From a virus (lineage: Duplodnaviria > Caudoviricetes): a DNA stretch of 64,000 bases. Shown in pieces: positions 48,050 through 64,000 of this stretch. The notes below the pieces were generated by a model. It did no database searches. It was not told the DNA's origin and was given only the letters and a program-made list of their open reading frames with translations. Made by a program: the position numbers and the translations under genes. The stretch covers positions 53,994 to 117,993 of IMG/VR virus record IMGVR_UViG_3300014205_000185. The stretch is one strand, 5' to 3'. Each line of letters starts with the position of its first letter. The first letter of the stretch is position 1.

Positions 48050-48059
48050 CGATAGACAA

Positions 48060-48139
48060 GGGGTCGGACGGTTTCGTCGGGTAGCTAGAACCGCACGTCG
48101 GAAGTTGCCTGCACCCGGGTTCGATTCCCGGCGGCTCCA
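48060..48139 (+). ncRNA. mini-tmRNA (tRNA-like domain only)
   Basis: 5' GGGGTCGGACGGTTTCG and 3' CCGGGTTCGATTCCCGGCGGCTCCA match tmRNA termini; G3:U70; only a short helix between them. Confidence 0.7.
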
Positions 48140-48151
48140 CGCAAGAAGCAA

Positions 48152-48227
48152 GGTCTGTTAGCTTAGCCTGGTTTAAAGCGCCACCCTGTCACGGTGGAGA
48201 TCACGGGTTCGAATCCCGTACAGATCG
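48152..48227 (+). tRNA. tRNA-Asp(GTC)
   Basis: CCACC-CTGTCAC-GGTGG. Confidence 0.92.
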
Positions 48228-48302
48228 CGGACCTAGAGGATAGCGAGATCGTATGCTCGCGTATCGCTAGGACAAGGCGGACCCTTCGGTGGTCCGCCCC
48301 AA

Positions 48303-48391
48303 GGAGATGTGGCAGAGTCCGGTTTATCGCGCAGTCCTGCTAAGACTGTGACCCCTAAAAAGGTCCCCGAGTTCAAATCTCGGCATCTCCG
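48303..48391 (+). tRNA. tRNA-Ser(GCT)
   Basis: CAGTC-CTGCTAA-GACTG, long variable arm. Confidence 0.9.
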
Positions 48392-48446
48392 CGCAGCTCG
48401 CTGGCCGTTCGATTCGGCCATAAACTTGGCGTTCTAGCGAGCCCTT

Positions 48447-48521
48447 GGGAACGTAACTCAGTCCGGTTAGAGTTCCGATCTGATACGTCGGCGGTCAGAG
48501 GTTCAAATCCTCTCGTTCCCA
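48447..48521 (+). tRNA. tRNA-Ile(GAT)
   Basis: CCGAT-CTGATAC-GTCGG. Confidence 0.88.
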
Positions 48522-48539
48522 CGCAGCAAGAGTTCGTAT

Positions 48540-48613
48540 GTCCCAGTAGCTCAATTGGACAGAGCGCTAGCCTACGAAGCTAGAGGTTGCAGGTTCGAGT
48601 CCTGCTTGGGATA
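48540..48613 (+). tRNA. tRNA-Arg(ACG)
   Basis: CTAGC-CTACGAA-GCTAG. Confidence 0.92.
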
Positions 48614-48618
48614 CGTAG

Positions 48619-48693
48619 CGGGATATAGCTCAGCTTGGTTAGAGCGCCGGTCTGGGGGACCGGAGGCCGTCGGTTCAAATCCGGCTCTCCCGA
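48619..48693 (+). tRNA. tRNA-Pro(GGG)
   Basis: CCGGT-CTGGGGG-ACCGG. Confidence 0.9.
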
Positions 48694-48698
48694 CGCAT

Positions 48699-48782
48699 GG
48701 TAGGCATCCGGCTGGATGAGGGGCCGCGTTCGAAGTGCGGTAGCGGGTCAAACCGTTGTGGGTTCGAGTCCTACGCCTACCG
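48699..48782 (+). tRNA. tRNA-Ser(CGA)
   Basis: CCGCG-TTCGAAG-TGCGG, long variable arm. Confidence 0.8.
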
Positions 48783-48789
48783 CGTACCT

Positions 48790-48876
48790 GGAAGATGACC
48801 GGTTGGTCGAGGGAGCACGGTTGGAAGTCGTGTACGTCGCGTGAGCGGCGCCGGAGTTCGAATCTCCGATCTTCCG
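48790..48876 (+). tRNA. tRNA-Ser(GGA)
   Basis: CACGG-TTGGAAG-TCGTG, long variable arm. Confidence 0.8.
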
Positions 48877-48990
48877 CGTGATCAAGAGATGGTTCAATCG
48901 ATGCTGGCCACAGTATCGGCTATGCGTTCGTCCCTGGTGCCTGCGCGGGCAGGCTTACGACCACCGCTGCTACAGGCACCAGGAATTGCC

Positions 48991-49812
48991 CTAGTCGGTT
49001 AACCGTCCGGCCTCCTCGTCGACTACGGCGTCGGCGACCGCGGCGATGGCGGCGGGCGTTAGGTCCACTGGCCCCGCACTGGAACCTCCGTCAGAGTCGC
49101 TGGCGAAGTAGCCAAAGAAGGTCGGGTCGACATCGAATACCGTTACCCATGGCTCGTTCGGTAGAGAGATCGAGCCGACAACTGTGGAGTAGATCGGCTT
49201 GAAGACATCGCCGCCTGGAGCGTGGCTGGCGTTGGTCTGTCGCCCCGACCACCACCAACCCTGACCGGCCATGGCGGCGGCGTCTCCGACGACAGCAATC
49301 TGCCCGCCCAGCGGGACTCGGTAATACACGCCGTTCATGCGGCAGAAGATGGTTGGCTGCACGTCGTCCTCCTCGATCGGGGGTAAGGGTGGAACCGGCG
49401 GTGTTGGCGTAATGGCAACATATCGATAGGCCTTGTAGCCAGGAGTAATGCGCTTGATCTCTCGTCGGACGGGGCCATTTACCCCGCCAGCCTGCTCCCA
49501 GATGTGGAGACCATTTGTAGTCCAGCCGTCGAAGAGCTGGATATGACCATCGTCGCCCGCGGTGCCTGGGCCGCAGAGACCGATAGCATCGCCCGGCTGT
49601 AGGTCGCTGACAGGAATTTCCTTCATAAAGCCCCGGGTAACAAGCGTGACCGTGTTTTCCCCGGGCGGTGGCGTCTTCCAGCACATGGAGACATAGCCGG
49701 AGCAGTCCTGGCGATATCCGTCCGGCTGGTGAACGAGAGCCTGGCTATATGGCACAGACCTCGGAGGCCAAATAGTGGCGGCCCTGACTAAGACTTCAGA
49801 ACGAGCGACCAT
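48991..49812 (-). CDS. endolysin-like NlpC/P60 peptidoglycan hydrolase
   Basis: YRQDCSGYVSMCW, LQPGDAI, GHIQLF; Pro linker; C-terminal IAAVADAVVDE. Confidence 0.8.
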   Translation of the reverse strand: MVARSEVLVRAATIWPPRSVPYSQALVHQPDGYRQDCSGYVSMCWKTPPPGENTVTLVTRGFMKEIPVSDLQPGDAIGLCGPGTAGDDGHIQLFDGWTTNGLHIWEQAGGVNGPVRREIKRITPGYKAYRYVAITPTPPVPPLPPIEEDDVQPTIFCRMNGVYYRVPLGGQIAVVGDAAAMAGQGWWWSGRQTNASHAPGGDVFKPIYSTVVGSISLPNEPWVTVFDVDPTFFGYFASDSDGGSSAGPVDLTPAAIAAVADAVVDEEAGRLTD

Positions 49813-49888
49813 TCAAGACCTCCTTGGCGGGCGCTAATGGTCAGACGGTACCGCATTAGCTGACAGTTTCGAGGCACTTGATAGACAT

Positions 49889-49975
49889 GGAGACGCCAGC
49901 CGATAGGCCGCCGGCCGCGAGTTTGAAGCTCGTTAGGGGTTAACGCCCGTGAGAGTTCGAGTCTCTCCGTCTCCG
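49889..49975 (+). tRNA. tRNA-Ser(TGA)
   Basis: GCGAG-TTTGAAG-CTCGT, long variable arm. Confidence 0.8.
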
Positions 49976-49987
49976 CCCAGAGGGCTC

Positions 49988-50017
49988 TTGACCGAACCTG
50001 AAGGTCCGGGGTACTCT
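49988..50017 (+). promoter_or_regulatory. putative promoter
   Basis: TTGACC-18 nt-TACTCT upstream of 50053. Confidence 0.5.
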
Positions 50018-50052
50018 GTACCCGGACATCCCCCTACAGGATCGGAACAGTC

Positions 50053-50526
50053 ATGAACACGAAGATCAAGGAATGGCTCGCGACCGCCGGATGGGTCATC
50101 GCCATCCTGCTCATCGTCCTGGTCGGCACGCTCGCATCCCGCAACCTCCAGGTCACGCCTTCCGGCTTCAAGGCCATCGCACAACAGACGTTCAAGGAAG
50201 TCCAGGTTCGCTTCGTCGTCAAGGTCGAGGAGCCGACTACCTGGATGGAGGTTCGGCTGTACGAGCTGGGCGAAAGCCCAAGCTCACTGGAGGAGACCCG
50301 GTCGACGCCGTTCATGACGGCGCGGGACTGGTCGTACACCGTGACCATGCGCAACGACATGTATACGGTCATCTGGCCGCTTCTCTACACCGGCATCGCT
50401 GGGCAGTCGGCCGGCGGCCGAGGGGTGTGCTGGGTCGAGGTTGACGGAGTCGAGGTCCCGGGCAGTCGGACCCAGATACCGTCCGGCAGCATCGTCCTGG
50501 CAAAGTGCGAGTACCGGGTCGACTGA
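50053..50526 (+). CDS. membrane-anchored MmpS-like protein
   Basis: N-terminal TM; C-terminal CWVEVDG...AKCEY disulfide pattern. Confidence 0.65.
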   Translation: MNTKIKEWLATAGWVIAILLIVLVGTLASRNLQVTPSGFKAIAQQTFKEVQVRFVVKVEEPTTWMEVRLYELGESPSSLEETRSTPFMTARDWSYTVTMRNDMYTVIWPLLYTGIAGQSAGGRGVCWVEVDGVEVPGSRTQIPSGSIVLAKCEYRVD

Positions 50527-50557
50527 CAGGAAGTCGCTCGCCATTGGCGAGCGCAAT

Positions 50558-50628
50558 GGGCCGTTAGCTGAGTGGTTTAGCTCCGGGCTCTTAACTCGGA
50601 GAGGAAGGTTCGATTCCTTCACGGCCTA
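50558..50628 (+). tRNA. tRNA-Lys(CTT)
   Basis: CCGGG-CTCTTAA-CTCGG. Confidence 0.88.
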
Positions 50629-50655
50629 CGCAACAAACTCCCTGGAGGAGGAAAC

Positions 50656-50742
50656 ATGTGGTGTCTAGGGCTGCTCTGCCTGGTCCTAGTGCTCATCGTC
50701 GTCGGAGCGTTCAGCAGACCTGACGACAGAGGGCCCCTGTAG
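50656..50742 (+). CDS. 28-aa membrane micropeptide
   Basis: GGAGGAGG RBS; MWCLGLLCLVLVLIVVGAFSRPDDRGPL. Confidence 0.5.
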   Translation: MWCLGLLCLVLVLIVVGAFSRPDDRGPL

Positions 50743-50806
50743 CTCAACGGATAGAGCCGCGGGCTTCTACCCCGCGAGTGTGCGGGTTCGAGTCCTGCCA
50801 GGGGCG
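50733..50806 (+). tRNA. tRNA-Arg(TCT)
   Basis: GCGGG-CTTCTAC-CCCGC. Confidence 0.9.
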
Positions 50807-50807
50807 C

Positions 50808-50879
50808 GTGCCGTGAGCATGGATGGTTATGCTCCGAACTTTTAATTCGGAGAGCAGGGTTCGAGTCCCTGGCGGCGCA
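50808..50879 (+). tRNA. tRNA-Lys(TTT)
   Basis: CCGAA-CTTTTAA-TTCGG. Confidence 0.85.
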
Positions 50880-50916
50880 CGACACAGGCCGCTATGCTTG
50901 CACGGCAACACATCGA

Positions 50917-50993
50917 CGCGGAGTAGAGCAGCTCGGCAGCTCGCTAGGCTCATAACCTAGAGGTCATCGGTTCGAATCCGATCTCCGCTACCA
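50917..50993 (+). tRNA. tRNA-Met(CAT), initiator-like
   Basis: loop CTCATAA; unpaired C1:U72; encoded CCA. Confidence 0.9.
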
Positions 50994-51057
50994 TGCTGGT
51001 CCCGGCACGAGGAGTGTCGGGCGTAAGCGCGGCATACACTCCGCGGCCCGCAGCAGT

Positions 51058-51129
51058 GCCCGTATAGCTCAGTGGCGGAGCATCTCTATGACACGGAGAA
51101 GGCCCCTGGTTCAAGTCCAGGTGCGGGTA
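51058..51129 (+). tRNA. tRNA-Val(GAC)
   Basis: TCTCT-ATGACAC-GGAGA. Confidence 0.88.
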
Positions 51130-51140
51130 CGTCAGTCGAT

Positions 51141-51215
51141 GGGGTCGTAGACTAATTTGGATAGGTCTCCGCTCTTTCAAAGCGGAAGGTGCCGGATCGT
51201 GCCCGGTCGACCCTA
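51141..51215 (+). tRNA. tRNA-Glu(TTC), atypical T loop
   Basis: CCGCT-CTTTCAA-AGCGG; T loop ATCGTGC. Confidence 0.75.
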
Positions 51216-51228
51216 CGCACAACTTCAT

Positions 51229-51302
51229 TCCCCGGTAGCTCAGCTGGTAGATGCATCCGCCTGTTAAGCGGAAGGTCCCTAGTTCGAATCTAGGTCGGGG
51301 AG
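51229..51302 (+). tRNA. tRNA-Asn(GTT)
   Basis: TCCGC-CTGTTAA-GCGGA. Confidence 0.88.
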
Positions 51303-51315
51303 CGCGGGCGTCAAT

Positions 51316-51388
51316 GCACCGAACCATCCGGTAGATGGATCCGATCCTTATAAGTTCGGAGGGGCGGGTTCGACTCCCCCTCGGTGTA
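51316..51388 (+). tRNA. atypical tRNA with TAT anticodon (Ile?)
   Basis: GCACCGA/TCGGTGT acceptor; CCGATC-CTTATAA-GTTCGG. Confidence 0.65.
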
Positions 51389-51397
51389 CATAATCAA

Positions 51398-51470
51398 GCA
51401 GATGTGGCCAAGCGGCTAAGGCCCCTCTTTCACACAGAGGAAATCAAAGGTTCGAGTCCTTTCATCTGCA
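51398..51470 (+). tRNA. tRNA-Val(CAC)
   Basis: CCTCT-TTCACAC-AGAGG. Confidence 0.88.
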
Positions 51471-51493
51471 CGTCGAGCCAAGGAGGCTCCACG

Positions 51494-51733
51494 ATGGACA
51501 CTGGCTGGAACACTGTCAGCACCGAGACTCTGGAGTTGTTGCGTAACAACTTGATCCAGGGCCTGAAGAAGGTGGCCGCGCACATCGCGGCCGGGACGTT
51601 CGAGGAGATCCCGCCTGGGAAGTCCTCGCCTCCGTCCCAGTCGGGCCAGCTAACCCTGGCCTTGCTCAACGAAATAGAAGCCGAACTGGCCGACCGGATT
51701 GCACATGTGAACACGGGTGACCAGGTAATGTGA
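51494..51733 (+). CDS. hypothetical protein
   Basis: AGGAGG RBS before MDTGWNTVST. Confidence 0.7.
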   Translation: MDTGWNTVSTETLELLRNNLIQGLKKVAAHIAAGTFEEIPPGKSSPPSQSGQLTLALLNEIEAELADRIAHVNTGDQVM

Positions 51734-51737
51734 ACCC

Positions 51738-52157
51738 ATGCCGATGGCGACCAAGGAAGAGCAACGCAACTATCAGCGCGAGTGGCGCAGTCAAAGACGC
51801 TTGGAGTGGATCCAAGCACACGGACCCTGTGTCCACTGTGGGGCATCGGAAGAGTTAGAAGTCGATCATATCGACCATAAGGAAAAGTTGCTAAATCCTT
51901 CTTACTTATGGTCTTTATCTAGAACAAATCCAAAAAGAATCGCGGAACTGGCTAAATGCCAGGTGCTATGCAAGAGATGTCATGACGCCAAGACCCTTGA
52001 ACAGCTAAAGACCTACAGGGGATATTGCCGACAGGGGCATCAGTTGGTTCAAGAGAACGTCTACCTCCATCCTGGATCTAGACGTAGGGAATGTCTTATC
52101 TGTAAAAAGACTCGCCGCAGGGCGAATGTCCATGGTGGCCGTAGCTCAATTGGTTAG
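51738..52157 (+). CDS. HNH endonuclease with C-terminal Zn finger
   Basis: CVHCG..LEVDHID...ELAKCQVLCKRCHDAKT; CRQGH..RREC.IC; lower GC than flanks. Confidence 0.85.
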   Translation: MPMATKEEQRNYQREWRSQRRLEWIQAHGPCVHCGASEELEVDHIDHKEKLLNPSYLWSLSRTNPKRIAELAKCQVLCKRCHDAKTLEQLKTYRGYCRQGHQLVQENVYLHPGSRRRECLICKKTRRRANVHGGRSSIG

Positions 52158-52208
52158 AGTGCTGGGCTGTGAACCCGGAGGTTGCGTGTTCGAACCACGT
52201 CGGTCACC
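52134..52208 (+). tRNA. tRNA-His(GTG)
   Basis: CTGGG-CTGTGAA-CCCGG; G-1:C73. Confidence 0.9.
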
Positions 52209-52252
52209 CTCCACATTGCACCTCCCTACAACAGCACATGAAATGGACCCCG

Positions 52253-52705
52253 ATGTTCTTCAATCGCCGTCTAGCCGTCTTCATGGCGGCAACCTGCATG
52301 GCCGTCTCGGTGGCCGGCTGTGAGCCGATTCAGCAGGGCGCGTCCAAGCCGGGCACACCCGAGGTCGTCTTCGAGATAAGGTCCAGCCCGCCGGGGCTGC
52401 TCGCGAGCATCCACATCGACGCCACGTACCCGGACGGGAGCCCCGTCCTCAACGCCGATACCGGCATGCCGTACCCGATGGACGTAGGCCGACGGACGCC
52501 GTACAAGCACACGTTCGCCTATGAGCCCGGCGCCTACGCGGTACTCAAGGTCGTGGCCATCGTCGTCGGCGAGCCGGGCGATGTCGTCTCCTGTTCGATC
52601 ACGGACGACGGATTCACGATCGAACGACCGCAACCGAAGCCGGTCGCCGAGATCCCCCCCGGAGTGATGGGGGCAGAGGTGGTCTGCATCTACACCACCA
52701 AGTAG
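52253..52705 (+). CDS. MmpS-like lipoprotein
   Basis: lipobox VAGC; TPY, SCSITDDG...VVCIY. Confidence 0.7.
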   Translation: MFFNRRLAVFMAATCMAVSVAGCEPIQQGASKPGTPEVVFEIRSSPPGLLASIHIDATYPDGSPVLNADTGMPYPMDVGRRTPYKHTFAYEPGAYAVLKVVAIVVGEPGDVVSCSITDDGFTIERPQPKPVAEIPPGVMGAEVVCIYTTK

Positions 52706-52799
52706 GCGTCCCTAGTCGGGGTCACATCCGACGCACCGCGGGACCGTCGGGGCGAAGCTCACCTGGCACCTTGTGGTGACGAGCTGAGCCCCGACGTAC

Positions 52800-52883
52800 G
52801 GGAGAGTTGGGCAATTGGTTTGGCCCAGCGGACTGTAAATCCGCCCCAGAAATGGCATGCAGGTTCGAGTCCTGTCTCTCCCA
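52800..52883 (+). tRNA. tRNA-Tyr(GTA)
   Basis: GCGGA-CTGTAAA-TCCGC, long variable arm. Confidence 0.9.
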
Positions 52884-52884
52884 C

Positions 52885-52958
52885 GTCATGTCAGGTAGCT
52901 CAACTGGAAGAGCACGCGACGGCGAAGATGGTCGGTTCGAGTCCGATCCTGACATGAC
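52885..52958 (+). ncRNA. anticodon-less tRNA mimic
   Basis: 11-bp GTCATGTCAGG/CCTGACATGAC stem, canonical D and T arms, anticodon arm only CGC-GACG-GCG. Confidence 0.6.
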
Positions 52959-52967
52959 CTCATACAT

Positions 52968-53044
52968 ATCCCTGTAGCTCAATTGGACAGAGCATCGGCC
53001 TCCGAAGCCGAAGGTTAGCGGTTCGAATCCGCTTAGGGATACCA
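52968..53044 (+). tRNA. tRNA-Arg(CCG)
   Basis: TCGGC-CTCCGAA-GCCGA; encoded CCA. Confidence 0.92.
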
Positions 53045-53065
53045 CTATCCACAAAGGAGGGAACC

Positions 53066-53668
53066 ATGGGAACGTGGTTCACGGCCGATACACACTTCGG
53101 CCATGCTCGCATCATCGAGCTGTGTAACCGGCCGTTCAAAACGGTCGAGGAGATGAACGAGAAGCTCGTCGAGAACTGGAACGAACGAGTCAGCCCCAAT
53201 GACGAGGTCTTCATATTGGGGGACCTGGCACTGGGAAAGCTCGACGAGAGCTTGACCTGGGTCGGGCTGCTCAACGGCACCAAGCACCTGGTGCCGGGCA
53301 ATCATGACCGCGTCTGGGAGGGGCACCCGAAGAAGGGCAAGCCCGTCCGGCCGGAGGACATCGTCAGGTACGAGGCGGCTGGGCTCAACATCATGCCCGG
53401 CACCATGAACTTCATCCCCGAGGGAGAATCTTTCCGGGATCCATGGATCTTGTGTCATTTCCCGGACGTGGGCGATAGCCACGATGCGGACCGGTACGAC
53501 AGCTGGCGGCCGAAGCCCAAGGTGGGTCAGGCCCTGATCCACGGTCACGTGCACGAAAAGTGGCTCACGAACGGCCCCAGAATCAACGTGGGCGTTGATG
53601 TATGGGACTACCGCCCCGTACATCAGGACGAGGTCGCCGTCCTCGCTACCGTGGCCCTGAGGGGCTAG
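53066..53668 (+). CDS. calcineurin-like metallophosphoesterase
   Basis: DTHFGH, LGD, GNHD, CHFP, HGHVH, INVGVD. Confidence 0.9.
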   Translation: MGTWFTADTHFGHARIIELCNRPFKTVEEMNEKLVENWNERVSPNDEVFILGDLALGKLDESLTWVGLLNGTKHLVPGNHDRVWEGHPKKGKPVRPEDIVRYEAAGLNIMPGTMNFIPEGESFRDPWILCHFPDVGDSHDADRYDSWRPKPKVGQALIHGHVHEKWLTNGPRINVGVDVWDYRPVHQDEVAVLATVALRG

Positions 53669-54643
53669 TTAGCCTGTCACGGTTAGAAGTGACTCGCTGT
53701 AGATGGTGGCGGCCGATCCTTGGATGTTGACACCGACCCAATACTGTCCGGCCGGAACCTGGGTCGATACCTGAGCATGTAGCTCGGTCGGAGTTTGCGA
53801 GCCGGTAATCGTCAATCGGTACGTGTCGTTTGATGGCCCCAGAAGATAGACCTTGTTCGGGGAGTTGAATCCGTCGCCGCTGATCGTGAGCGAGGTTCCG
53901 CGGGTTGCCGTGGTGGGACTGAAACTGGTTACGTGGATGGCAGTATCGACCGCATCCACGGTGCAACTGCACACAGTCCACGCATAGCCAGGAGCATGCA
54001 GGGCTGGTATCCAGGTTCCCACAGAGAGCGGAGGCGTGGAGACTGCCACTTCTCCCGGGTTGTGTGGAGTGAAGGCCACTGCCTCAAGGATGGCGCCCGT
54101 AGCCTGGTCGGTGAATTGAATGCCATCAACCGCATTGATCTCGAAGCTACCCGACAGAATCAGAACCTCCACGGAATGAGCGGAGATGGACGTCGGGCTC
54201 ACTCCCGTCAACGCAGGAGCGGTGCCGGGATCTGGGTTCGGGGTCGTGGGGTCGTAGCACGAGATGATTGGCACCACGTAGACCTCAGACGTAAGCCCGG
54301 TGGTTTGATCCGTGAGGACGACGAGGAATGTGTGTCCGTCGGAGCCGTAGTTGTGTTCGTAATCGTCTCCATCCACAACCCCAGTAGTCGTGGTCCCGTC
54401 GCCCCAATCAATGGTTGCCGTATTGGGCGTAGATACGTGCACGCCGAGCGTCTGCCCGTCGTCGGCATGAAGGTGCAGGATGGAGGGGCCGCCATCTAGA
54501 GTGAGAGACGCGACGTCTCCTGGGCCAGCGCTAGTGGCCTGCGTCCGGCCAACGTGATAGGCACTCAGGATGTTGGGCCCTTCGTCAATAAGCCGAAGCG
54601 CACCTTTAGTGGCCATGATGCTGCCCGGGATGACGATGGACAT
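53669..54643 (-). CDS. PKD/IPT-TIG domain protein, possibly virion-associated
   Basis: IDWGDGT PKD motif; two IPT-like repeats (LTGVSPT, VTSFSPT...LTISGDGF). Confidence 0.7.
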   Translation of the reverse strand: MSIVIPGSIMATKGALRLIDEGPNILSAYHVGRTQATSAGPGDVASLTLDGGPSILHLHADDGQTLGVHVSTPNTATIDWGDGTTTTGVVDGDDYEHNYGSDGHTFLVVLTDQTTGLTSEVYVVPIISCYDPTTPNPDPGTAPALTGVSPTSISAHSVEVLILSGSFEINAVDGIQFTDQATGAILEAVAFTPHNPGEVAVSTPPLSVGTWIPALHAPGYAWTVCSCTVDAVDTAIHVTSFSPTTATRGTSLTISGDGFNSPNKVYLLGPSNDTYRLTITGSQTPTELHAQVSTQVPAGQYWVGVNIQGSAATIYSESLLTVTG

Positions 54644-54867
54644 ATTGCGACCATTGCTGTTGGTTTCAATGAGATGCGCGTCCTCTCTGGCCCAGGCCAG
54701 GACTCGGCCGGCAATGTGTCTCACGAACTGTGGGTACTCGGCGATGATCCTGAAATATCCACAGCCCATGACGCACCTCTGTCCCGTATTGCACACTTCC
54801 CCCTGTAGCATCCCACCGTCGGTGACCAATAGCTAACCCTTGCGGAAGTCGACAATCTGATTAGCAA

Positions 54868-54941
54868 GCCGATGTGCCTGAGTGGTCCAAAGGGGGCGCC
54901 TGCAAAGCGCCTATTCGCCGGTTCGAATCCGGCCTTCGGCT
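54868..54941 (+). tRNA. tRNA-Cys(GCA)
   Basis: GGCGC-CTGCAAA-GCGCC. Confidence 0.9.
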
Positions 54942-54969
54942 CAAGAAGTGCTGTTCTGCTGTGGGCCTT

Positions 54970-55037
54970 GGCGAGGGATCAGGGATCAACGGTTACTCAT
55001 AATGACCGTCGGCCGGGATCAATACCCGGACTCGCTA
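54970..55037 (+). tRNA. compact atypical tRNA with CAT anticodon
   Basis: ACGGTTA-CTCATAA-TGACCGT 7-bp stem; tiny D arm GATC-AGG-GATC; T loop ATCAATA. Confidence 0.55.
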
Positions 55038-58329: not shown

Positions 58330-58359
58330 TTGCACTACCCCCACATCGGGGTGTAACGT
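58330..58359 (+). promoter_or_regulatory. promoter with operator copy 6
   Basis: TTGCAC-18 nt-TAACGT; CCCCCACATCGGGG. Confidence 0.65.
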
Positions 58360-58428
58360 TCCTCGGGTCAGTGGCCCCAGTGCCGCGCCCACGTGAAGTC
58401 CATAACTCCCTACCGAAAGCGGGACCCA

Positions 58429-59166
58429 GTGGCCAACCTCAAGCTCAATCAGATCATCGCCTTGCAGAAGGGCGCCAAGGCGGCCGGCGAGGGCGCACTC
58501 ACCAAGGCGTACCACGACCTCCAGAAGTCGACTCTTCTGACCGGCCTCACCAAGACCTATAAGTCCCGCGACGACGAGGGCGAGAGCCTTCCGTCCGAAG
58601 GGGTCAAGCTCCAGCTCCGGACCAGCGAGGTGCTCAGCGACCTGAAGGCTCCGCTGAAGCGGCTGCTGGATCTGACCGCCACCCTCGACGCCGGCAACCA
58701 GCAGGCCAGGGCCGACGTGGTCGTGGACGACGTGGTCGTGCTGCCCGGAGTCCCGGTGACCACCCTGCTGACACTGGAGAAGAAGCTGGTCGACCTGACC
58801 ACCTTCGTGTCCAAGCTGCCGGTGCTCGACGCAAGCGAGAACTGGCACGCCGATTCGACCAGCGGCGCCTACAAGACCGAGCCCGACGTCAAGACGCGCA
58901 GTAAGAAGGTTCCGCGCAACCACCTCAAGGCCGCCGCCACGGACAAGCACCCGGCCCAGGTCGAGATGTACTACGAGGACGTCGTCGTCGGCGACTGGAC
59001 CACGACCAAGTTCTCCGGCGCCATCCCCGAGGAGATGCGTCGGGACCTGCTCGCCAAGGTCACGAAGCTGGCTGCCGCGATCAAGGTCGCTCGCGAGGCG
59101 GCGAACATGACCGAGGTCGCGGACGTGAAGATCGGTGACTCCATCTTCACCTACCTCGGCTGGTAG
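58429..59166 (+). CDS. conserved uncharacterised coiled-coil protein (DUF7873-like, from memory)
   Basis: KLNQIIA.QKG.K, LL.LEK.L, KKVPRNH.KA.ATDKHPAQV...EDV.VG.W...FSGA, A.K.ARE.AN; strongly biased codons. Confidence 0.8.
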   Translation: MANLKLNQIIALQKGAKAAGEGALTKAYHDLQKSTLLTGLTKTYKSRDDEGESLPSEGVKLQLRTSEVLSDLKAPLKRLLDLTATLDAGNQQARADVVVDDVVVLPGVPVTTLLTLEKKLVDLTTFVSKLPVLDASENWHADSTSGAYKTEPDVKTRSKKVPRNHLKAAATDKHPAQVEMYYEDVVVGDWTTTKFSGAIPEEMRRDLLAKVTKLAAAIKVAREAANMTEVADVKIGDSIFTYLGW

Positions 59167-59239
59167 GACTGCTACGCTGCAAACGGCCGGGGTTCCCGCG
59201 GGTCCCCGGCCCCCAAAACTCCCACCTCTAGGGTGGGTT

Positions 59240-59612
59240 GGCACAAGCTCAAGCTGAATGTAGTGGCGTTCGAGGTGGCCCAATGAGGGTGGTGCACCCG
59301 TAATACCTCGACTAAAAGCACCAGAAACTGAAGTTCTTGCCACAAACTCAAGCATTGCCGCAATTCGCTACATCGAACGAACGTGATCAAACCAACCGAA
59401 GGCTCCGGTTCAAATCCGGACGGCGCCGCCAAACCATGGCGCCGTAGCTTAGTGGCAGAGCGTCGGTTCCGCAGACCTTAGACACGTTCTTAAATGTTGG
59501 TAGCGATCCAAATTGGCGGTACCCCGAATCACATGTAGCGCAATGGATAGCGCGACAGCCACAACAGCTGTAGTTGCCGGTTCGAGTCCGGCCATGTATT
59601 ACACATTCGGTT
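59240..59612 (+). ncRNA. large structured RNA with permuted tRNA domain and second tRNA mimic
   Basis: T arm 59404-59420, looped acceptor stem, D arm 59444-59461, long nested helices; second cloverleaf-like unit 59527-59600. Confidence 0.7.
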
Positions 59613-59643
59613 GGGGGGCGTCTCCGGCTATGAGGCGCCCCCC
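59613..59643 (+). terminator. GC-rich hairpin closing the ncRNA
   Basis: GGGGGGCGTCTC...GAGGCGCCCCCC. Confidence 0.6.
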
Positions 59644-59655
59644 TCTCTAGCTTTA

Positions 59656-59677
59656 TCCCCATGTGGGGGTGTAGAGT
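59656..59677 (+). promoter_or_regulatory. operator copy 7 with -10
   Basis: TCCCCATGTGGGGG-TG-TAGAGT; ATG at 59684. Confidence 0.55.
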
Positions 59678-59804
59678 GGTCGCATGACCTCACAAAACCC
59701 CTACGGATCGTCGCTCCTGGCCTCGTTCAACGAGCTGGCGGACGCAAACGCCACTGGCGATCGCGAGCACATCAAGGCCGCAGAACTGAAATGCGCTGTC
59801 AGAC

Positions 59805-60494: not shown

Positions 60495-63400
60495 CTAGAA
60501 GCCACCACTGTTGTAACTGCCCGCGTCCTGCCATAGCGATTGCAGCGTGGATGAGAGAGCGTCGCGCGGACTCGCGATCCGAGCTTCTTTCTTCTCGCCA
60601 TCCATGAGGTAGCGGCAGGCGTGGACAAGGGCATCCAGGCGGTCTGGTGACTCGTTGGTTCCCCAGCCGGTGAAGGTCGACATCTGGTCTTCGAGCTTGG
60701 GCATGTGGCCCACCATGTGCAGTCGCCCTTGCTCGCAGCGCATGGCCACGGGCTCGGCGCGCGTCTTCTTGCCGATCTTCGTGTCGATGCGGACCAGGGG
60801 CGGCTTACTGCCGGCGGGGAACAGGCCCTGGCCGACCAGCTCGAAGTAGGCGTCGTGGAATACCTGCTGCATCCAGCGCTTGCCGAGGTTCTCCTCGCAC
60901 ACGAGCTTGTCGGCGCCGAACTCGGCCACGATGCGCCAGGCGGCCAGCGCCGCGGCCCTACCTACCGCCATGGCGGACTTGTCGGCCTGGACGTAGAGGT
61001 GCTTCTGACGGTCGCGAGAGACCACCACAATGCCCATCTCGTCGTCTTCGCCAGTGAGGCTCGGGTCCACGCCTACAACGGTGGCGATGATGTCGTCCGG
61101 GATGTCATCGACGCGGCCGTTCTCGATGTCGAGGCGGGCGAACAGGGCTCCGTCGAATGCCTCGATGACTTCGCCGTACAGCTCCTGGCGGCCGACCGCA
61201 GTGCCCTCGTAGCGACGCTTCAGCTCCTGGATCACCAGCGCCGATAAGTTCGCCTGGTTGTCGAATGTCGAGCCGCGCATGAGATGGACCGTGCCGTCGT
61301 CGCGCTTGAGCCATTCCTGGATCAGGTCGATCGGCTTCGGGGTGGTGGTGACGAATGCCCGGGGGTGGTCTCCGACGAGGTCTGCCCGCAGAGACGGCAT
61401 GATGCCCTCGTACCAGGAGCGTCGAGGGGTTCGCCACTTTACACAGTTATGGACTAAGAGGCCGCCAGCGAAGAACTCTGGCTGGCCGTCGATTGTCAGG
61501 TCATAGACCTTCGCGGGAGCGGAGACCTTCTCGACGGCGAGCACGCGCGTCTGACTGAGCTTTGCGCTGGGCGGCGGATCGGCACGACTGCCCGCACCAC
61601 TTGGCGCGCATGCCGGTGCTGAGGTAAACCACTCCGCACTCCGCGCAGACAACTTCCCTAGGCTCGCGCCGCTGCCAATAGGCAGTAAGGCCAGCGCTGG
61701 TTCGTTCAGATCTCCCCTCAGTCCAGGCGGGATCATCTCGTTGCGCGCAAGTGAGTCGTTGGTGTGCTGCAACAGTAAGGAGTTCGAGGTTCTCCAGGCG
61801 ATCGTCCCACCGGCAGCGATTGATGTGATTGACCTCGTGGCCGTCCGGGATCGGGCCGTGGACTTTGATCCAGAGAGACCGGTGAAGGAGGGAGCCGGCT
61901 CGATTGAGGTGATAGCCCATGCGCTTGTTGAAGTACCAGCGTTCGCCGTCCCAGTCATAGAAGGCGGGCTCGGCGCTGGCGACAGGGGGTTCGTATCCAT
62001 TTGGCGAAGACATGTAACCATGCTATCGCCAGGGACTACGTCCTTGGCGTTTTTCCAGCCGCGGTGAGTCCAGACCAAATGGGTCGGCGTCACGACCACG
62101 GCACCAGAATCGGTCACGATGCGGATGACAGACGTGCTTTCGGATACGACCCATGCGTCCGTTACGCGCCGGAAGCCTGCGCGAGTTAGGGCCAGATCGC
62201 CGATTCTGACCTGCTCGATGGGGATGGCGCCGCGGGCGGTCGTAACTAGCTCGCCCTCGGCTACGCACTCATCAAGCCAGGCGCCCGATGCGTTGTAGCC
62301 ACGGCCTACGTCAGGGTCATCGGCGCCCTCGGTGTAGATCTTCGCGCCGGATGGGAACAGCACCATCGGACGTGGCGACATCTTGTAGCGGTGCCGGATC
62401 TTGCGCCGGTTAAGGACCTGGAGAATGCCCGCCGGCCCCTCCATGCAAATGGTGCGGGCGTCAGAGAGCGTCTCGGCAATGACGAGCCATTCGGTCGAGG
62501 CACCGCGGTTGTCGTAGGGGTGCTTCAGGACCTGATTCACGACCCACTCGGATCCGGCTCGACTGTTGTGGGTCGGAATCATCGACTCACCGATCAGATA
62601 CATGGAATTCGGCGAGTCGACCGTGATGCAGCGCATCGGGGTCGGATCGATGGGTTCGACGGCCGTGATCATCCGATGGTGATTGCGCAGGCTTTGGCTG
62701 TTTGTCGGTGCGTACTTAGCTGCTTTGCGCGGGCTGCTGAATGGATTGAAGGTAGGGCGCCAGGTCACCCTGAAGCTTGGTCCATGATCAACGCCGTTGA
62801 GTATGGCTCGACCTTCGTGCAGCACTGCTTTTTGACTAAGAGAGCGGGCCAAGAAGGCGACAGCTTCGGCCAGCTCTCGACGCACCGAAGAGAACTCCAC
62901 CTTGGATGCCTCGCCGTAGCCATCCGAGTCCATGAGTCCAGCCAACAGCTCCATGCGCTGTCGAGGAGATGCCCAGAGGTACTGCTCCGGGACATGTTTC
63001 ATGCCAAGTACGCCCAGCTTCCGAAGCAAAGTCACCAGTCCGTAGGGACTGCCGCGGAAAGACCCTCCGGACTCCTGAGTCAATCGAGCATCAAACTGTC
63101 CGGCGACAATGCGCCGCTGAACATGGTCCGCGTCCTGGGCATTCCCGACTAGCTCGCCGCTGTTGGTGCTGCCGTTGCCCAGCCAGTAGCCCAGGAGCCA
63201 GGGATCTATAGGGAGATCGGCGTCAGGCAGTTGGAGGGGACCTGCGACCGGGATGCAGTGATTGAGATCGCCGCGGGAGCCATAGGTCATCGTGTTGACG
63301 ATGTCCTGGGTCGTTCGTATCCGGGGACCGGCGCCACTCTCGTCGCGACGTAGCGTCGCCCCTCGTTGGCGCAGGGGGCGCCAGTTGGCCCAGTCAGTCG

Positions 63401-63863
63401 GGAACCGAGTCACGTCACCTTCGTGGCTGGAGCGTAGGAAGGACTTCCTGTCGCGGTGCTCCCAAGTCACCCATTGATGCTCGGAGCAGGCGTCAATGGT
63501 GGAGCCGTCAGAGAACGTGATCCGGTAGGCGGTCGCTGGAGTCTGATTAAAGACGGCAGTGACCGTACATGGCGCCCCGGTCTCATCGAAGACTTGATCC
63601 CCAATCTCAAGGTCGCCCATCTTCCTGAACCCACTGGGCGTTGGGATCGGGGTAGAGAGAGCCACTGCCTTGCCCCACCCGCGCCCGGCGAGTGCCAGAC
63701 AGACGAACCAGTTGCCAGGCGGAGGAACCTGCTCGGGACGAGCTACCCACCACCATTCCCCCCGGGCCATTTCCTCGACGAGATATGGCGGTTGTTGAGT
63801 GAGCCAGTCGAGGCGTTCCCTTTCGGGTAATGCCGCAACTCGATCCTGTAATGACAGCCCCAT
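60495..63863 (-). CDS. terL: terminase large subunit with two inteins
   Basis: LAGRGWGK|S Walker A, AWLDE Walker B, TTTPKP, GSTFDN, GRQELYGE, VGVDP, SPDRLDALVHA. Confidence 0.93.
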   Translation of the reverse strand: MGLSLQDRVAALPERERLDWLTQQPPYLVEEMARGEWWWVARPEQVPPPGNWFVCLALAGRGWGKAVALSTPIPTPSGFRKMGDLEIGDQVFDETGAPCTVTAVFNQTPATAYRITFSDGSTIDACSEHQWVTWEHRDRKSFLRSSHEGDVTRFPTDWANWRPLRQRGATLRRDESGAGPRIRTTQDIVNTMTYGSRGDLNHCIPVAGPLQLPDADLPIDPWLLGYWLGNGSTNSGELVGNAQDADHVQRRIVAGQFDARLTQESGGSFRGSPYGLVTLLRKLGVLGMKHVPEQYLWASPRQRMELLAGLMDSDGYGEASKVEFSSVRRELAEAVAFLARSLSQKAVLHEGRAILNGVDHGPSFRVTWRPTFNPFSSPRKAAKYAPTNSQSLRNHHRMITAVEPIDPTPMRCITVDSPNSMYLIGESMIPTHNSRAGSEWVVNQVLKHPYDNRGASTEWLVIAETLSDARTICMEGPAGILQVLNRRKIRHRYKMSPRPMVLFPSGAKIYTEGADDPDVGRGYNASGAWLDECVAEGELVTTARGAIPIEQVRIGDLALTRAGFRRVTDAWVVSESTSVIRIVTDSGAVVVTPTHLVWTHRGWKNAKDVVPGDSMVTCLRQMDTNPLSPAPSPPSMTGTANAGTSTSAWAITSIEPAPSFTGLSGSKSTARSRTATRSITSIAAGGTIAWRTSNSLLLQHTNDSLARNEMIPPGLRGDLNEPALALLPIGSGASLGKLSARSAEWFTSAPACAPSGAGSRADPPPSAKLSQTRVLAVEKVSAPAKVYDLTIDGQPEFFAGGLLVHNCVKWRTPRRSWYEGIMPSLRADLVGDHPRAFVTTTPKPIDLIQEWLKRDDGTVHLMRGSTFDNQANLSALVIQELKRRYEGTAVGRQELYGEVIEAFDGALFARLDIENGRVDDIPDDIIATVVGVDPSLTGEDDEMGIVVVSRDRQKHLYVQADKSAMAVGRAAALAAWRIVAEFGADKLVCEENLGKRWMQQVFHDAYFELVGQGLFPAGSKPPLVRIDTKIGKKTRAEPVAMRCEQGRLHMVGHMPKLEDQMSTFTGWGTNESPDRLDALVHACRYLMDGEKKEARIASPRDALSSTLQSLWQDAGSYNSGGF
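61446..62267 (-). mobile_element. intein 2 (274 aa) at Walker B
   Basis: CVAEGELVTT...TPTH...VYDLTIDGQPEFFAGGLLVHN|C. Confidence 0.9.
61501..62013 (-). CDS. HNH homing endonuclease overprinted in intein 2
   Basis: LHRSLW...GPIPDGHEVNHINRCRWDDRLENLELL...H; C-terminal CAECG..WCGQSC. Confidence 0.8.
   Translation of the reverse strand: MSSPNGYEPPVASAEPAFYDWDGERWYFNKRMGYHLNRAGSLLHRSLWIKVHGPIPDGHEVNHINRCRWDDRLENLELLTVAAHQRLTCAQRDDPAWTEGRSERTSAGLTAYWQRREPREVVCAECGVVYLSTGMRAKWCGQSCRSAAQRKAQSDARARRREGLRSREGL
62565..63668 (-). mobile_element. intein 1 (368 aa), class 3-type, LAGLIDADG, in Walker A
   Basis: AVALSTPIPTP; HQW; LLGYWLGNG and LLAGLMDSDG; RCITVD...PTHN|S. Confidence 0.9.
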
Positions 63864-64000
63864 ATCCCCCAAGTTAAACCCCAAACCCAACCCTTGTCGA
63901 TCTTCAACCCAACAAACCTCGCGCCCACTTTCCCCTACCCCCTTCCTCCCGGAAGTTGATCTCCCAGGACTTGATCTTTCAGGAATAGCGTTTCGGTGCT

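What the first reader, a model, noticed from the sequence alone, without database searches (positions are those of the whole stretch)
58330..59643. Protein + large ncRNA unit with a circularly permuted tRNA domain: candidate undescribed ribonucleoprotein system
Seen: one promoter, a conserved 245-aa coiled-coil protein, ~450 nt non-coding, then a closing hairpin. The RNA has three AA(A/G)CT(C/G)AAG repeats (59244, 59325, 59344) and a long interrupted helix (TGCCGCAATT/AATTGGCGGT, TCGCTAC/GTAGCGA, GAACGTG/CACGTTC, AACCGA/TCGGTT) capped by a tRNA in permuted order: T arm, acceptor closed by loop GCCAAACCAT, D arm. A second tRNA-like unit (loop CACAACA, no U33, no CCA) sits in a CCGAAT/ATTCGG stem. 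Known: bacterial YrlA Y RNAs have such permuted tRNA-like domains, but they partner Ro60, which is not in this window. Inference: the adjacent protein oligomerises on the repeats and displays tRNA mimics, e.g. as a decoy for anticodon nucleases or a ribosome/RNase tether.
Basis: partly seen in the sequence, partly recalled or inferred. Interest (0 to 1): 0.88.

Follow-up and report, generated by a model that had tools for sequence, protein, structure and literature searches.

The report
Phage tRNA-mimic RNA with DUF7873 partner
A phage gene for an unknown protein (DUF7873) is followed by a folded RNA of about 430 bases built around a back-to-front tRNA look-alike; the same gene-RNA pair recurs in many phages and bacteria without Ro60, the usual partner of such RNAs, so it is probably an undescribed RNA-protein machine linked to tRNA biology.

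Summary
ORF 58429-59166 is a DUF7873 protein, and 59212-59643 is a structured non-coding RNA.

- **Structure:** a covariance model of the long helix plus the permuted tRNA-like module hits 59341-59524 at 159 bits. On 129 distinct relatives, all 44 of its base pairs show compensatory changes.
- **Linkage:** the module lies next to DUF7873 in 80/80 bacterial loci and 73/79 viral loci. It is sometimes on the opposite strand or 8.5 kb away. Gene and RNA co-occur in 75 of 121 Streptomycetaceae genomes (one alone: 1 each; neither: 44).
- **Ro60:** it is absent from this phage, from 5 related phages or viral records, and from 27 of the 75 carrier genomes. Genuine Ro60-adjacent YrlA-like RNAs are separate loci.
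- **Protein:** the fold has no informative structural relative. A symmetric homodimer is predicted.
- **This window:** the first tRNA-like unit typical of the family is degenerate. A third, normally ordered tRNA-like module (59529-59600) recurs in about 11 other loci.

Direct protein-RNA binding, processing and function are untested. Decoying anticodon nucleases is unlikely for the permuted module, which has no anticodon loop. This scan had already noted the same pair on other DNA (at least 112 genomes). I found it in neither Rfam 15 nor the papers searched.

The parts
58330..58359 (+). Promoter-like region: TTGCAC, an 18-nt spacer holding the palindromic motif CCCCACATCGGGGTGTA (58339-58355), then TAACGT
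   Evidence: The motif recurs at 59657, 57768 and 40620: 6 matches with up to 2 mismatches against 0.06 expected. The sigma-70 scan made no call. Function is inferred only.
58429..59166 (+). DUF7873 protein gene, 245 aa
   Evidence: Pfam PF25283, E 3.8e-93. The family has 2244 clusters at 50% identity. AF2 pLDDT 96.6. Predicted homodimer: ipSAE 0.69 against a best control of 0.00.
59185..59211 (+). GC-rich hairpin just after the stop codon (GGCCGGGG...CCCCGGCC), with no U tract
   Evidence: Read from the sequence and present in the minimum-free-energy fold. It is seen in L012 but not in L013, L015 or L097, so it is probably not part of the conserved RNA.
59221..59237 (+). Conserved 5' hairpin of the RNA (CCCACC-TCTA-GGGTGGG)
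   Evidence: Conserved in the window's clade (L012, L013, L015, L097) and recovered by RNAalifold.
59238..59343 (+). Domain 1, closed by TTGGCA/TGCCA. It is flanked by the repeats at 59245 and 59325. The permuted tRNA-like unit 1 typical of the family is degenerate here.
   Evidence: The alignment with relatives shows the T arm and acceptor deleted. R1 gave no core hit in 59167-59340, whereas it finds unit 1 in most other loci. The same loss is seen in L012, L013, L015 and L097.
59344..59352 (+). Third copy of the AARCTSAAG repeat, in the linker between domains 1 and 2
59356..59520 (+). Domain 2: long interrupted helix (P1-P4) capped by a circularly permuted tRNA-like module.
- T arm 59404-20.
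- Acceptor 59421-27/59438-44, with G-CCA then AACCAT in the closing loop.
- D arm 59447-61.
- Conserved internal loops ATCGAAC (59372-78) and TTAAATGTTG (59490-99).
   Evidence: R1 hit 59341-59524, 159.1 bits, E 1.3e-38. Covariation supports every helix. Rfam YrlA is below threshold at 25.6 bits.
59524..59610 (+). Domain 3: tRNA-like cloverleaf in the normal order (59529-59600) inside the stem CCGAAT/ATTCGG. The anticodon loop is CACAACA and there is no CCA.
   Evidence: Rfam tRNA 45.8 bits. ARAGORN calls it Leu(caa), yet it lacks the long variable arm of bacterial tRNA-Leu. The same kind of module lies in the same place in 11 other loci, 10 of which were aligned with the window's copy; 13/19 pairs covary. 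The window's closest relatives carry two small hairpins there instead.
59613..59643 (+). Closing hairpin (12-bp GC-rich stem), a terminator-like end of the unit
   Evidence: Minimum-free-energy fold. Equivalent hairpins end the RNA in relatives. There is no U tract, so the pattern scan did not call it.

Best explanation
The region encodes a two-part module: the DUF7873 protein and a trans-acting structured RNA of about 430 nt from a widespread family. The family's core is a YrlA-type, circularly permuted tRNA mimic, with elbow and closed acceptor stem but no anticodon loop.

Most likely the protein acts as a homodimer that binds the conserved single-stranded motifs and internal loops of the RNA (AUCGAC, CUUAAACG and the A(A/G)ACUCA(A/G) repeats). 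The resulting Ro60-independent ribonucleoprotein would present tRNA-like elbows and acceptor minihelices to enzymes that recognise tRNA, such as RNase P, the CCA-adding enzyme and 3'-end repair enzymes such as RlaP. Its role would be surveillance or repair of tRNA or RNA ends.

Phages that carry large tRNA arrays, like this one with 41 tRNA genes, would bring the module along to keep the tRNA pool working during infection.

**Shown:** the RNA structure, the genetic coupling and the independence from Ro60.
**Inferred:** direct binding, processing and the biochemical role.
For: **RNA structure**
- R1 scores 159 bits in the window.
- All 44 pairs show compensatory changes: 91.3% of cells paired against about 41% when partners are slid; covariation score 0.486 against 0.06-0.09.

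**Coupling of gene and RNA**
- A full-length module lies next to the gene in 80/80 bacterial loci and 73/79 viral loci.
- All nine distant phage homologues examined have a permuted unit downstream. Their hosts are Pseudanabaena, Microcoleus, Rhizobium (three phages), Klebsiella (two), Ralstonia and Rhodococcus.
- In 121 Streptomycetaceae genomes: both present and adjacent in 75, RNA only in 1, protein fragment only in 1, neither in 44.
- In Myxococcota the RNA stays adjacent but on the other strand in 4 of 17 loci.
- Where it is not adjacent it is elsewhere in the same genome: 8.5 kb away in two viral records, on another contig in G288.

**Independence from Ro60**
- No TROVE gene in this complete phage or in 5 related phages or viral records.
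- 27 of the 75 carrier genomes have no TROVE gene.
- Ro60-adjacent YrlA-like RNAs are separate loci with different flanking motifs.

**Protein**
- Homodimer: ipSAE 0.69, best control 0.00. That mark was reached by 20 of 30 proteins solved as pairs of one chain and 1 of 23 solved as single chains. The runs agree in at least 98% of contacts, and the partner's pLDDT is at least 89.
- The invariant residues G39, Y44, G188, W190 and S196 lie in the predicted interface.

**tRNA theme**
- The module sits in or beside tRNA arrays in phages: 32 of the 80 viral loci hold tRNA genes.
- RlaP follows the RNA in the window's closest relatives, and this phage has an RlaP gene at 41195-42007.
- RlaP adds 1-2 nucleotides to damaged RNA 3' ends and restores repaired tRNA (bioRxiv 10.64898/2025.12.29.696909).
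- M. smegmatis YrlA, with a 7-bp acceptor stem like this one, is cut by RNase P and receives CCA (PMC4201824).
Against: - No transcript, binding, processing or phenotype data exist for any member.
- The protein fold has no RNA-binding relative. The best structural match is 3kdq, a protein of unknown function (Z 9.9, rmsd 7.5 A).
- Neighbouring genes in bacterial chromosomes are not conserved, so no pathway partner is evident.
- RlaP adjacency is confined to one clade.
- My loci are biased towards closer relatives (28-72% identity).
- An earlier follow-up in this scan (e1-2703945) reported that a looser word-pattern test found the pairing in only 17.8% of genes, and priced the ribonucleoprotein reading at 22/100.
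- In this window one of the two tRNA-like units is lost, so a strict 'one protomer per unit' model cannot be general.
Confidence: 0.55

Rival explanations
1. It is a phage-supplied Y RNA (YrlA) that works with the host's Ro60 (Rsr). DUF7873 is only a neighbour.
For: - The module has YrlA topology and gives a below-threshold Rfam YrlA hit: 25.6 bits here, 38.2 and 32.9 in GodonK and Racecar.
- Genuine Streptomyces Rsr-adjacent YrlA-like RNAs also score below the gathering value, at 34-52 bits.
- TROVE genes were found in 66 of 121 Streptomycetaceae genomes.
- The loop motif AUCGAAC resembles the Ro-binding motif GNCGAAN0-1G (PMC4201824).
Against: - No TROVE gene in this phage or in 5 related phages or viral records.
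- 27 of 75 genomes that carry the pair have no TROVE gene.
- The RNA tracks DUF7873 almost perfectly: 75 both, 1 and 1 alone, 44 neither.
- Rsr-adjacent RNAs are distinct loci about 1 kb 5' of rsr. Two of them were read base by base (L205, L209); one carries a repeated GGTTACTTC motif, and neither shows this family's motifs.
Confidence: 0.1
2. The RNA acts on its own as a sponge or decoy for proteins that recognise tRNA: defence toxins aimed at the acceptor or CCA end, RNase P, or modification enzymes. DUF7873 would only stabilise, process or regulate it.
For: - The tRNA elbow and a 7-bp acceptor stem are conserved.
- An encoded NCCA right after the acceptor strand is common: ACCA in 31 of 95 first units, and G-CCA here.
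- Phage copies sit in tRNA arrays.
- An optional third module carries varied anticodon loops.
Against: - The module is a single-copy chromosomal locus in 62% of the Streptomycetaceae genomes sampled, with housekeeping neighbours. That is odd for a purely anti-defence decoy.
- The strict co-inheritance with a highly conserved protein (E about 1e-118 within the family) suggests a joint activity.
- The permuted units have no anticodon loop, which excludes decoying of anticodon nucleases.
Confidence: 0.2
3. The downstream RNA is a cis-acting 3' UTR of the DUF7873 mRNA: a stabiliser, attenuator or terminator region.
For: In most loci it lies 50-250 nt after the stop codon on the same strand and ends in a terminator-like hairpin.
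Against: - It stays adjacent but on the opposite strand in L188, L190, L191, L193 and L174.
- It lies 8.5 kb away in two viral records and on another contig in G288.
- The deeply conserved tRNA-like tertiary-contact nucleotides are not expected of a UTR.
Confidence: 0.03
4. It is the precursor of a working permuted or split tRNA, or of a two-piece tmRNA.
For: - T arm, acceptor with NCCA, short spacer, acceptor, D arm is the gene order of two-piece tmRNA and of algal permuted tRNA genes.
- GodonK unit 1 even has G3:U70, A73 and CCA.
- Rfam tmRNA_permuted gives a weak hit of 19.4 bits.
Against: - Where the anticodon loop should form there is a long, covarying helix with conserved internal loops.
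- The window's acceptor is G1-C72, G2-C71, C3-G70 with G73, so it lacks alanine identity.
- There is no tag reading frame or pseudoknot. ARAGORN calls no tmRNA here, and 19.4 bits is far below the gathering score of 47.
- G3:U70 is not conserved among relatives.
Confidence: 0.03

Closest known systems
YrlA (Y RNA-like A, Rfam RF02553) with Ro60/Rsr, in bacteria and mycobacteriophages (Chen et al. 2014, PMC4201824; Wang et al. 2018, bioRxiv 10.1101/312249)
   Same: - A circularly permuted tRNA-like module (T arm, acceptor stem closed by a loop, D arm) sits at the tip of a long stem formed by the RNA's 5' and 3' parts.
- The elbow nucleotides are conserved.
- The acceptor stem is 7 bp, as in M. 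smegmatis YrlA, which RNase P cleaves.
- Tandem tRNA-like units are encoded next to a protein gene.
- Both occur in actinobacteria and their phages.
   Different: - The partner gene is DUF7873, not Ro60.
- Ro60 is absent from this phage and from 27 of 75 carrier genomes.
- The stem motifs differ: AUCGAC, CUUAAACG and the ACUCAAG repeats.
- The RNA is two to three times longer (360-480 nt).
- The Rfam score is 25.6 bits against a gathering score of 69.
- In genomes that have both, the two systems are separate loci.
[quoted passage not shown]
   Same: - It embodies the idea of a tRNA-like RNA paired with a protein other than Ro60, in an RNA-repair context.
- The window's third module is a nearly normal tRNA-like cloverleaf.
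- In Rhodococcus phage NiceHouse, a tRNA and a Band-7 gene directly follow the DUF7873 RNA.
   Different: - No Band-7 gene lies next to this unit.
- The conserved core here is the permuted, anticodon-less module.
- I could not read the original paper, so the comparison rests on a secondary description.
Two-piece (permuted) tmRNA (Rfam RF04321)
   Same: The same permuted order of T arm, acceptor-CCA, spacer, then 5' acceptor strand.
   Different: - No alanine identity in the window.
- No tag reading frame and no pseudoknots.
- A true D arm is present.
- 19.4 bits against a gathering score of 47.
GOLLD and ROOL large phage-associated non-coding RNAs (Rfam)
   Same: Large structured RNAs found in phages, often beside tRNA genes. 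Function unknown.
   Different: There was no Rfam match even at E up to 10. The architecture is different, and neither GOLLD nor ROOL has an obligate neighbouring protein gene (from my own knowledge).

Membership tests
DUF7873 (Pfam PF25283) protein family | Match to the Pfam profile above its curated cut-off over the full length | tested here: met
   312 bits against a cut-off of 27, residues 5-243 on profile positions 3-241 of 244.
   159.1 bits, E 1.3e-38, model positions 1-181 of 181. The window sequence was in the seed, so the score is partly by construction. Its close relative L097, which was not in the seed, scores 146.8 bits.
A strict pattern detector that requires a perfect 7-bp acceptor found two units in 60 of 77 bacterial loci and about half of the viral loci. 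| tested here: not met
   No unit is detected in 59167-59340 by the pattern detector or by the R1 core. The alignment shows the T arm and acceptor deleted. The same holds for L012, L013, L015 and L097.
YrlA / bacterial Y RNA (RF02553) | Permuted tRNA-like domain with a loop-closed acceptor stem | tested here: met
YrlA / bacterial Y RNA (RF02553) | Score at or above the Rfam gathering threshold | tested here: not met
   25.6 bits against 69. Note that Rsr-adjacent Streptomyces RNAs also fall below it, at 34-52 bits.
YrlA / bacterial Y RNA (RF02553) | Encoded next to, or in a genome with, a Ro60/Rsr (TROVE) gene | tested here: not met
   No TROVE gene in the complete 117,993-bp phage or in 5 related phages or viral records. 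The host genome is unknown.
YrlA / bacterial Y RNA (RF02553) | Binding to Ro60 through the conserved stem motif GNCGAAN0-1G | not testable with these tools
   Only a similar motif is present (A-U-CGAA-C-G at 59372-59379). Binding needs an experiment.
Two-piece tmRNA (RF04321) | Alanine identity (G3:U70, A73), a tag reading frame and pseudoknots | tested here: not met
   The acceptor has C3-G70 and G73. ARAGORN calls no tmRNA. 19.4 bits against 47.
Permuted tRNA genes (Cyanidioschyzon type) | The ends of the precursor join to form an anticodon loop, through a bulge-helix-bulge motif | tested here: not met
   The anticodon stem continues into three further covarying helices (P3-P1) with conserved loops. 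I searched for no bulge-helix-bulge motif; its absence is inferred from the continuous helix.
GOLLD / ROOL | Match to the Rfam models | tested here: not met
   No hit at E up to 10 in 59100-59720.

The most novel reading that the evidence does not exclude
DUF7873 and its RNA form a new class of ribonucleoprotein in which a protein dimer holds an RNA scaffold carrying one to three tRNA mimics. RNase P would nick the closed acceptor loops to expose NCCA 3' ends. The particle would then serve either as a dedicated platform that recruits 3'-end repair or CCA-adding enzymes to damaged tRNAs, or as a bait for defence toxins that modify tRNA acceptor ends. Phages with tRNA arrays would use it as a counter-defence.
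Probability: 0.2. Interest if true: 0.88.

Novelty: new variant of a known kind. Interest (0 to 1): 0.74.

Why it matters
- **Scale.** The protein family has about 2,200 clusters at 50% identity, yet it has no PHROG or PADLOC family, no informative structural relative and no mention in about 8.4 million searched papers. Its RNA partner is absent from Rfam 15.
- **Reach.** The pair spans Actinomycetota, Myxococcota and Chloroflexota, and phages of actinobacteria, cyanobacteria and alpha-, beta- and gamma-proteobacteria.
- **A second home for Y-RNA-type mimicry.** The pair shows that this kind of tRNA mimicry is not tied to Ro60. Comparing the two systems could answer the long-standing question of what the tRNA-like module of YrlA is for.
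- **Tractable models.** Gordonia phage GodonK, Arthrobacter phage Racecar, Rhodococcus phage NiceHouse and Streptomyces strains make that question directly testable.
- **Annotation.** The 400-700 nt 'gaps', the spurious small ORFs and the odd 'tRNA' calls after this gene in deposited phage genomes are one RNA gene.

Tried and rejected
- **Rfam at its curated thresholds over the whole window:** only tRNAs and one tmRNA-like hit. Nothing covered the stem or the permuted module.
- **PHROGs and PADLOC for the protein:** no family.
- **PDB by sequence profile:** nothing meaningful.
- **Structure searches:**
  - Foldseek against PDB gave no match at E <= 0.001. TolC appeared at about 0.01 and 3kdq at probability 0.95.
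  - VIA-align over all representative chains gave only 3kdq_A (unknown function, Z 9.9, rmsd 7.5 A, 147 residues) above a background of coiled-coil matches.
  - BFVD gave no named relative.
  - The ESM Atlas gave only other hypothetical phage families.
- **Finding loci with the 117-sequence alignment:** It worked with 14 closer sequences.
- **RNA-seq evidence:** no RNA holder was listed for the window sequence.
- **Burroughs and Aravind 2016:** not held in the library. I used the secondary description in 10.1101/312249.
- **Phage identity:** blastn of the terminase region against GenBank phages gave no match, so the host is unknown.
- **RlaP as a general partner:** rejected, because it is adjacent only in the window's clade and in L136.
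- **Origin of the third module:** it is not a recent copy of one of the phage's own tRNAs. The best identity is 75%, to tRNA-Arg at 48540.
Full report
**Setting.** The window is the last 64 kb of a complete 117,993-bp virus record with inverted terminal repeats. It carries 41 tRNA genes between 43.8 and 55.0 kb, an RlaP nucleotidyltransferase gene at 41195-42007 and a terminase gene on the reverse strand. Its terminase region has no blastn match among GenBank phages. The finding is the last rightward unit before the convergent structural genes.

**Observation check.**
- The ORF from GTG 58429 to 59166 (245 aa) matches Pfam DUF7873 at E 3.8e-93.
- The next 477 nt are non-coding.
- The three repeats are at 59245, 59325 and 59344: 6 matches in the window against 1.04 expected.
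- Rfam calls 59529-59600 a tRNA (45.8 bits). It gives a below-threshold YrlA hit on 59380-59491 (25.6 bits against 69). It finds no GOLLD or ROOL even at E up to 10.
- The sigma-70 scan finds no promoter. A palindromic motif, CCCCAYRTNGGGGTGTA, occurs at 58339 and again at 59657 just after the closing hairpin, so it brackets the unit.

**The RNA is real and conserved.** Every homologue of the protein I first looked at has 400-700 unannotated bases downstream that hold permuted tRNA-like units (T arm, 3' acceptor strand, short loop often starting NCCA, 5' acceptor strand, D arm), and the acceptor stems covary. These homologues were:
- Gordonia phage GodonK and Arthrobacter phage Racecar;
- five IMG/VR contigs;
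- Pseudanabaena phage PA-SR01, Rhizobium phage TM21B, Klebsiella phage KpLz-2_45 and Ralstonia phage phiRSL1.

I built a covariance model (R1: 181 positions, 44 pairs) of the long stem plus the permuted module from 24 sequences.
- It hits the window at 59341-59524 with 159 bits.
- On 129 distinct matched sequences, 91.3% of cells form standard pairs, against 39-43% when partners are slid by 1-3 columns. All 44 pairs show changes on both sides. The covariation score is 0.486 against 0.06-0.09.
- Per helix: P1 74%, P2 96%, P3 92%, P4 80%, T arm 99%, acceptor 99%, D arm 95%.
- Caveat: this alignment was fitted to the model. However, P2, P3, the T arm and the acceptor already paired in 18-24 of 24 sequences in the plain MAFFT alignment.

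**Coupling to DUF7873.**
- *Adjacency.* A full-length R1 match lies downstream on the same strand in 80/80 bacterial loci, mostly Streptomyces but also Catenulispora, Virgisporangium, a Ktedonobacteraceae MAG and a Polyangiaceae MAG. The same holds for 73/79 testable viral loci. A strict pattern detector found units in 3/77 and 3/75 upstream controls, and in 0/77 and 2/75 reverse-strand controls.
- *Phyletic pattern.* In an even sample of 121 Streptomycetaceae genomes, 76 have the RNA and 76 have the protein. They are adjacent in 75. One genome has only a weak RNA, one has only a protein fragment, and 44 have neither.
- *Orientation.* In a sample of 301 Myxococcota genomes, 18 carry the gene. 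Of 17 loci with a clear gene, 14 have a full-length R1 module adjacent. In four of these (L188, L190, L191, L193) it is on the opposite strand, either divergent or convergent. Two divergent second copies (L198, L199) have only the tRNA-like core downstream, and L185 has no adjacent RNA.
- *Apparent exceptions.* In the three I followed up (L185's genome G288, and the viral records of L150 and L151), the RNA is elsewhere in the same genome: on another contig in G288, and 8.5 kb away in the two viral records.
- *Distant relatives.* Five further phage homologues at 30-42% identity also have the RNA.

The RNA is therefore an independent gene that is co-inherited with DUF7873. It is not a 3' UTR.

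**Not a Ro60 system.**
- No TROVE gene occurs in this phage or in five related phages or viral records.
- Of the 75 Streptomycetaceae carriers, 48 have a TROVE gene and 27 do not.
- Where both exist they are normally far apart. Partial R1 hits that cover only the tRNA-like core lie about 1 kb 5' of the TROVE genes (for example G004:C38). These are genuine Rsr-adjacent YrlA-like RNAs. They score 34-52 bits on Rfam YrlA, and in G004 there are two in tandem. In the two I read base by base (L205, L209) the flanks differ; one carries a repeated GGTTACTTC motif, and neither shows AUCGAC, CUUAAACG or the ACUCAAG repeats.
- So there are two related RNA families with two different protein partners, and they can coexist in one genome.

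**What is particular to this window.**
- *Domain 1.* Most relatives have two permuted units. Here, and in the closest relatives (L012, L013, L015, L097; proteins 65-72% identical), unit 1 is replaced by a variable structure that is not tRNA-like. The flanking repeats and the closing stem TTGGCA/TGCCA are kept.
- *Domain 3.* Where those relatives have two small hairpins, the window has a tRNA-like cloverleaf in the normal order. Such a third module, placed 0-6 nt after domain 2 and before the terminator, recurs in L037, L102, L106, L110, L112, L116, L117, L122, L125, L130 and L131. Its cloverleaf covaries in 13 of 19 pairs.
- *Not working tRNAs.* The anticodon loops of these third modules are mostly CUNNNAA, but their anticodons do not fit the tRNA class: Tyr, Ser and Leu anticodons without a long variable arm, and A34 anticodons. 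They look like mimics. The window's loop, CACAACA, lacks U33.

**The protein.**
- AF2 with 117 homologues gives pLDDT 96.6 and pTM 0.77: four helices of about 27 residues and a sheet with a 16-residue beta-hairpin. The most conserved, basic segment (K159, K160, R163, H165, K173, H174, P175, A176, Q177) spans the two strands and the tip loop.
- No informative structural or sequence relative was found.
- A two-copy prediction supports a symmetric homodimer: ipSAE 0.69, best control 0.00. That mark was reached by 20 of 30 proteins solved as pairs of one chain and 1 of 23 solved as single chains. The runs agree in at least 98% of contacts, and the partner's pLDDT is at least 89. This is the model's own confidence, not a measurement.
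- The hairpin tip (about residues 165-178) is not in the predicted interface, so it is free and could be a nucleic-acid-binding arm. This is inference.

**Mechanism.**
- *Shown:* a covarying RNA with a YrlA-type tRNA mimic; tight genetic coupling to DUF7873 that does not depend on orientation; independence from Ro60.
- *Inferred:* a DUF7873 dimer binds the conserved unpaired motifs and displays tRNA-like elbows and acceptor minihelices to enzymes that recognise tRNA.
- *What points to maintenance of tRNA or RNA ends:*
  - the 7-bp acceptor with an encoded G-CCA here, and ACCA in a third of first units;
  - the placement in phage tRNA arrays;
  - RlaP next door in the nearest relatives, an enzyme that extends damaged RNA 3' ends (10.64898/2025.12.29.696909).
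- *Against a phage-only counter-defence role:* the single-copy chromosomal locus with unrelated neighbours in Streptomyces.
- *Against decoying anticodon nucleases:* the conserved modules lack anticodon loops.

**Novelty.**
- 'DUF7873' occurs in none of the roughly 8.4 million papers and preprints searched. Searches for permuted or tRNA-mimic phage RNAs found only the YrlA literature and a catalogue of unnamed candidate viral RNAs.
- This scan had already noted the same pair on other DNA: 177 notes in at least 112 genomes. I re-tested the core claims independently. What I add is the orientation and separation evidence, the co-occurrence table, the recurrent third module and the loss of unit 1 in this clade.
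- An earlier follow-up check priced the ribonucleoprotein reading at only 22/100 after a looser pairing test. My samples show near-universal pairing, but they are biased towards relatives that sequence patterns could find.

Noticed in passing
window 48060-48140 (+): An 81-nt element between tRNA-Leu and tRNA-Asp matches only the tRNA-like domain of tmRNA. It scores 48.4 bits against a gathering score of 47 in the whole-window scan and 44.2 in the local scan. The acceptor is GGGGUCG/CGGCUCC with G3:U70 and A73. The roughly 294 model positions for the tag and pseudoknots are replaced by 6 nt. ARAGORN calls neither a tRNA nor a tmRNA there. It may be a second kind of tRNA or tmRNA mimic in this phage.
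   Followed up: partly
window 41195-42007 (+): RlaP (PF10127) nucleotidyltransferase gene, E 5e-27, just upstream of the tRNA array. In the closest relatives of the finding, RlaP sits directly after the DUF7873 RNA instead.
   Followed up: partly
window 43792-55036 (+): An array of 41 tRNA genes covering nearly all amino acids, including tRNA-Ile(tat) and two tRNA-Met. R1 gives weak partial hits at junctions between tandem tRNAs (for example 52854-52915 and 47053-47112). This shows how a permuted unit could arise from a tandem duplication of one tRNA gene.
   Followed up: no
window 58339, 59657, 57768, 40620 (+) and 42051, 40615 (-): The palindromic motif CCCCAYRTNGGGGTGTA, followed by a -10-like hexamer, recurs upstream of rightward genes: 6 matches against 0.06 expected. 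It may be a phage-specific promoter or operator.
   Followed up: partly
window 60495-63890 (-): A 1131-aa terminase-like ORF that appears to be interrupted by intein-like insertions. A separate HNH-like ORF (61501-62013, minus strand) lies in another frame inside it. No blastn match among GenBank phages.
   Followed up: no
L213 (Rhodococcus phage NiceHouse) 3060-4040: Directly after the DUF7873 RNA come tRNA-Lys(ttt) and a gene annotated as a Band-7-like membrane protein. This resembles the predicted 'Band-7-associated tRNA' arrangement of Burroughs and Aravind.
   Followed up: no
G072:C4:4561415-4565031: In one Streptomycetaceae genome the TROVE (Ro60) gene lies only about 2.4 kb upstream of DUF7873 and its RNA, on the same strand. 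It was the only close pairing of the two systems I noticed among the TROVE and DUF7873 coordinates listed for the sample.
   Followed up: no
L205 (G004:C38:29250-29700, minus strand): Two tandem YrlA-like permuted units lie upstream of the Streptomyces rsr gene, one of them with ACCA after the acceptor strand. Both score below Rfam's YrlA gathering value (51.6 and 33.6 bits against 69), so Rfam under-calls actinobacterial Y RNAs.
   Followed up: partly
L214 (Klebsiella phage vB_KpM_FBKp24) 2215-2510: The depositors annotated a promoter right after the DUF7873 gene and a 'tRNA-Sup-TTA' inside what R1 identifies as the tRNA-mimic RNA. GodonK likewise has a small reverse-strand 'hypothetical protein' called inside the RNA.
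   Followed up: no
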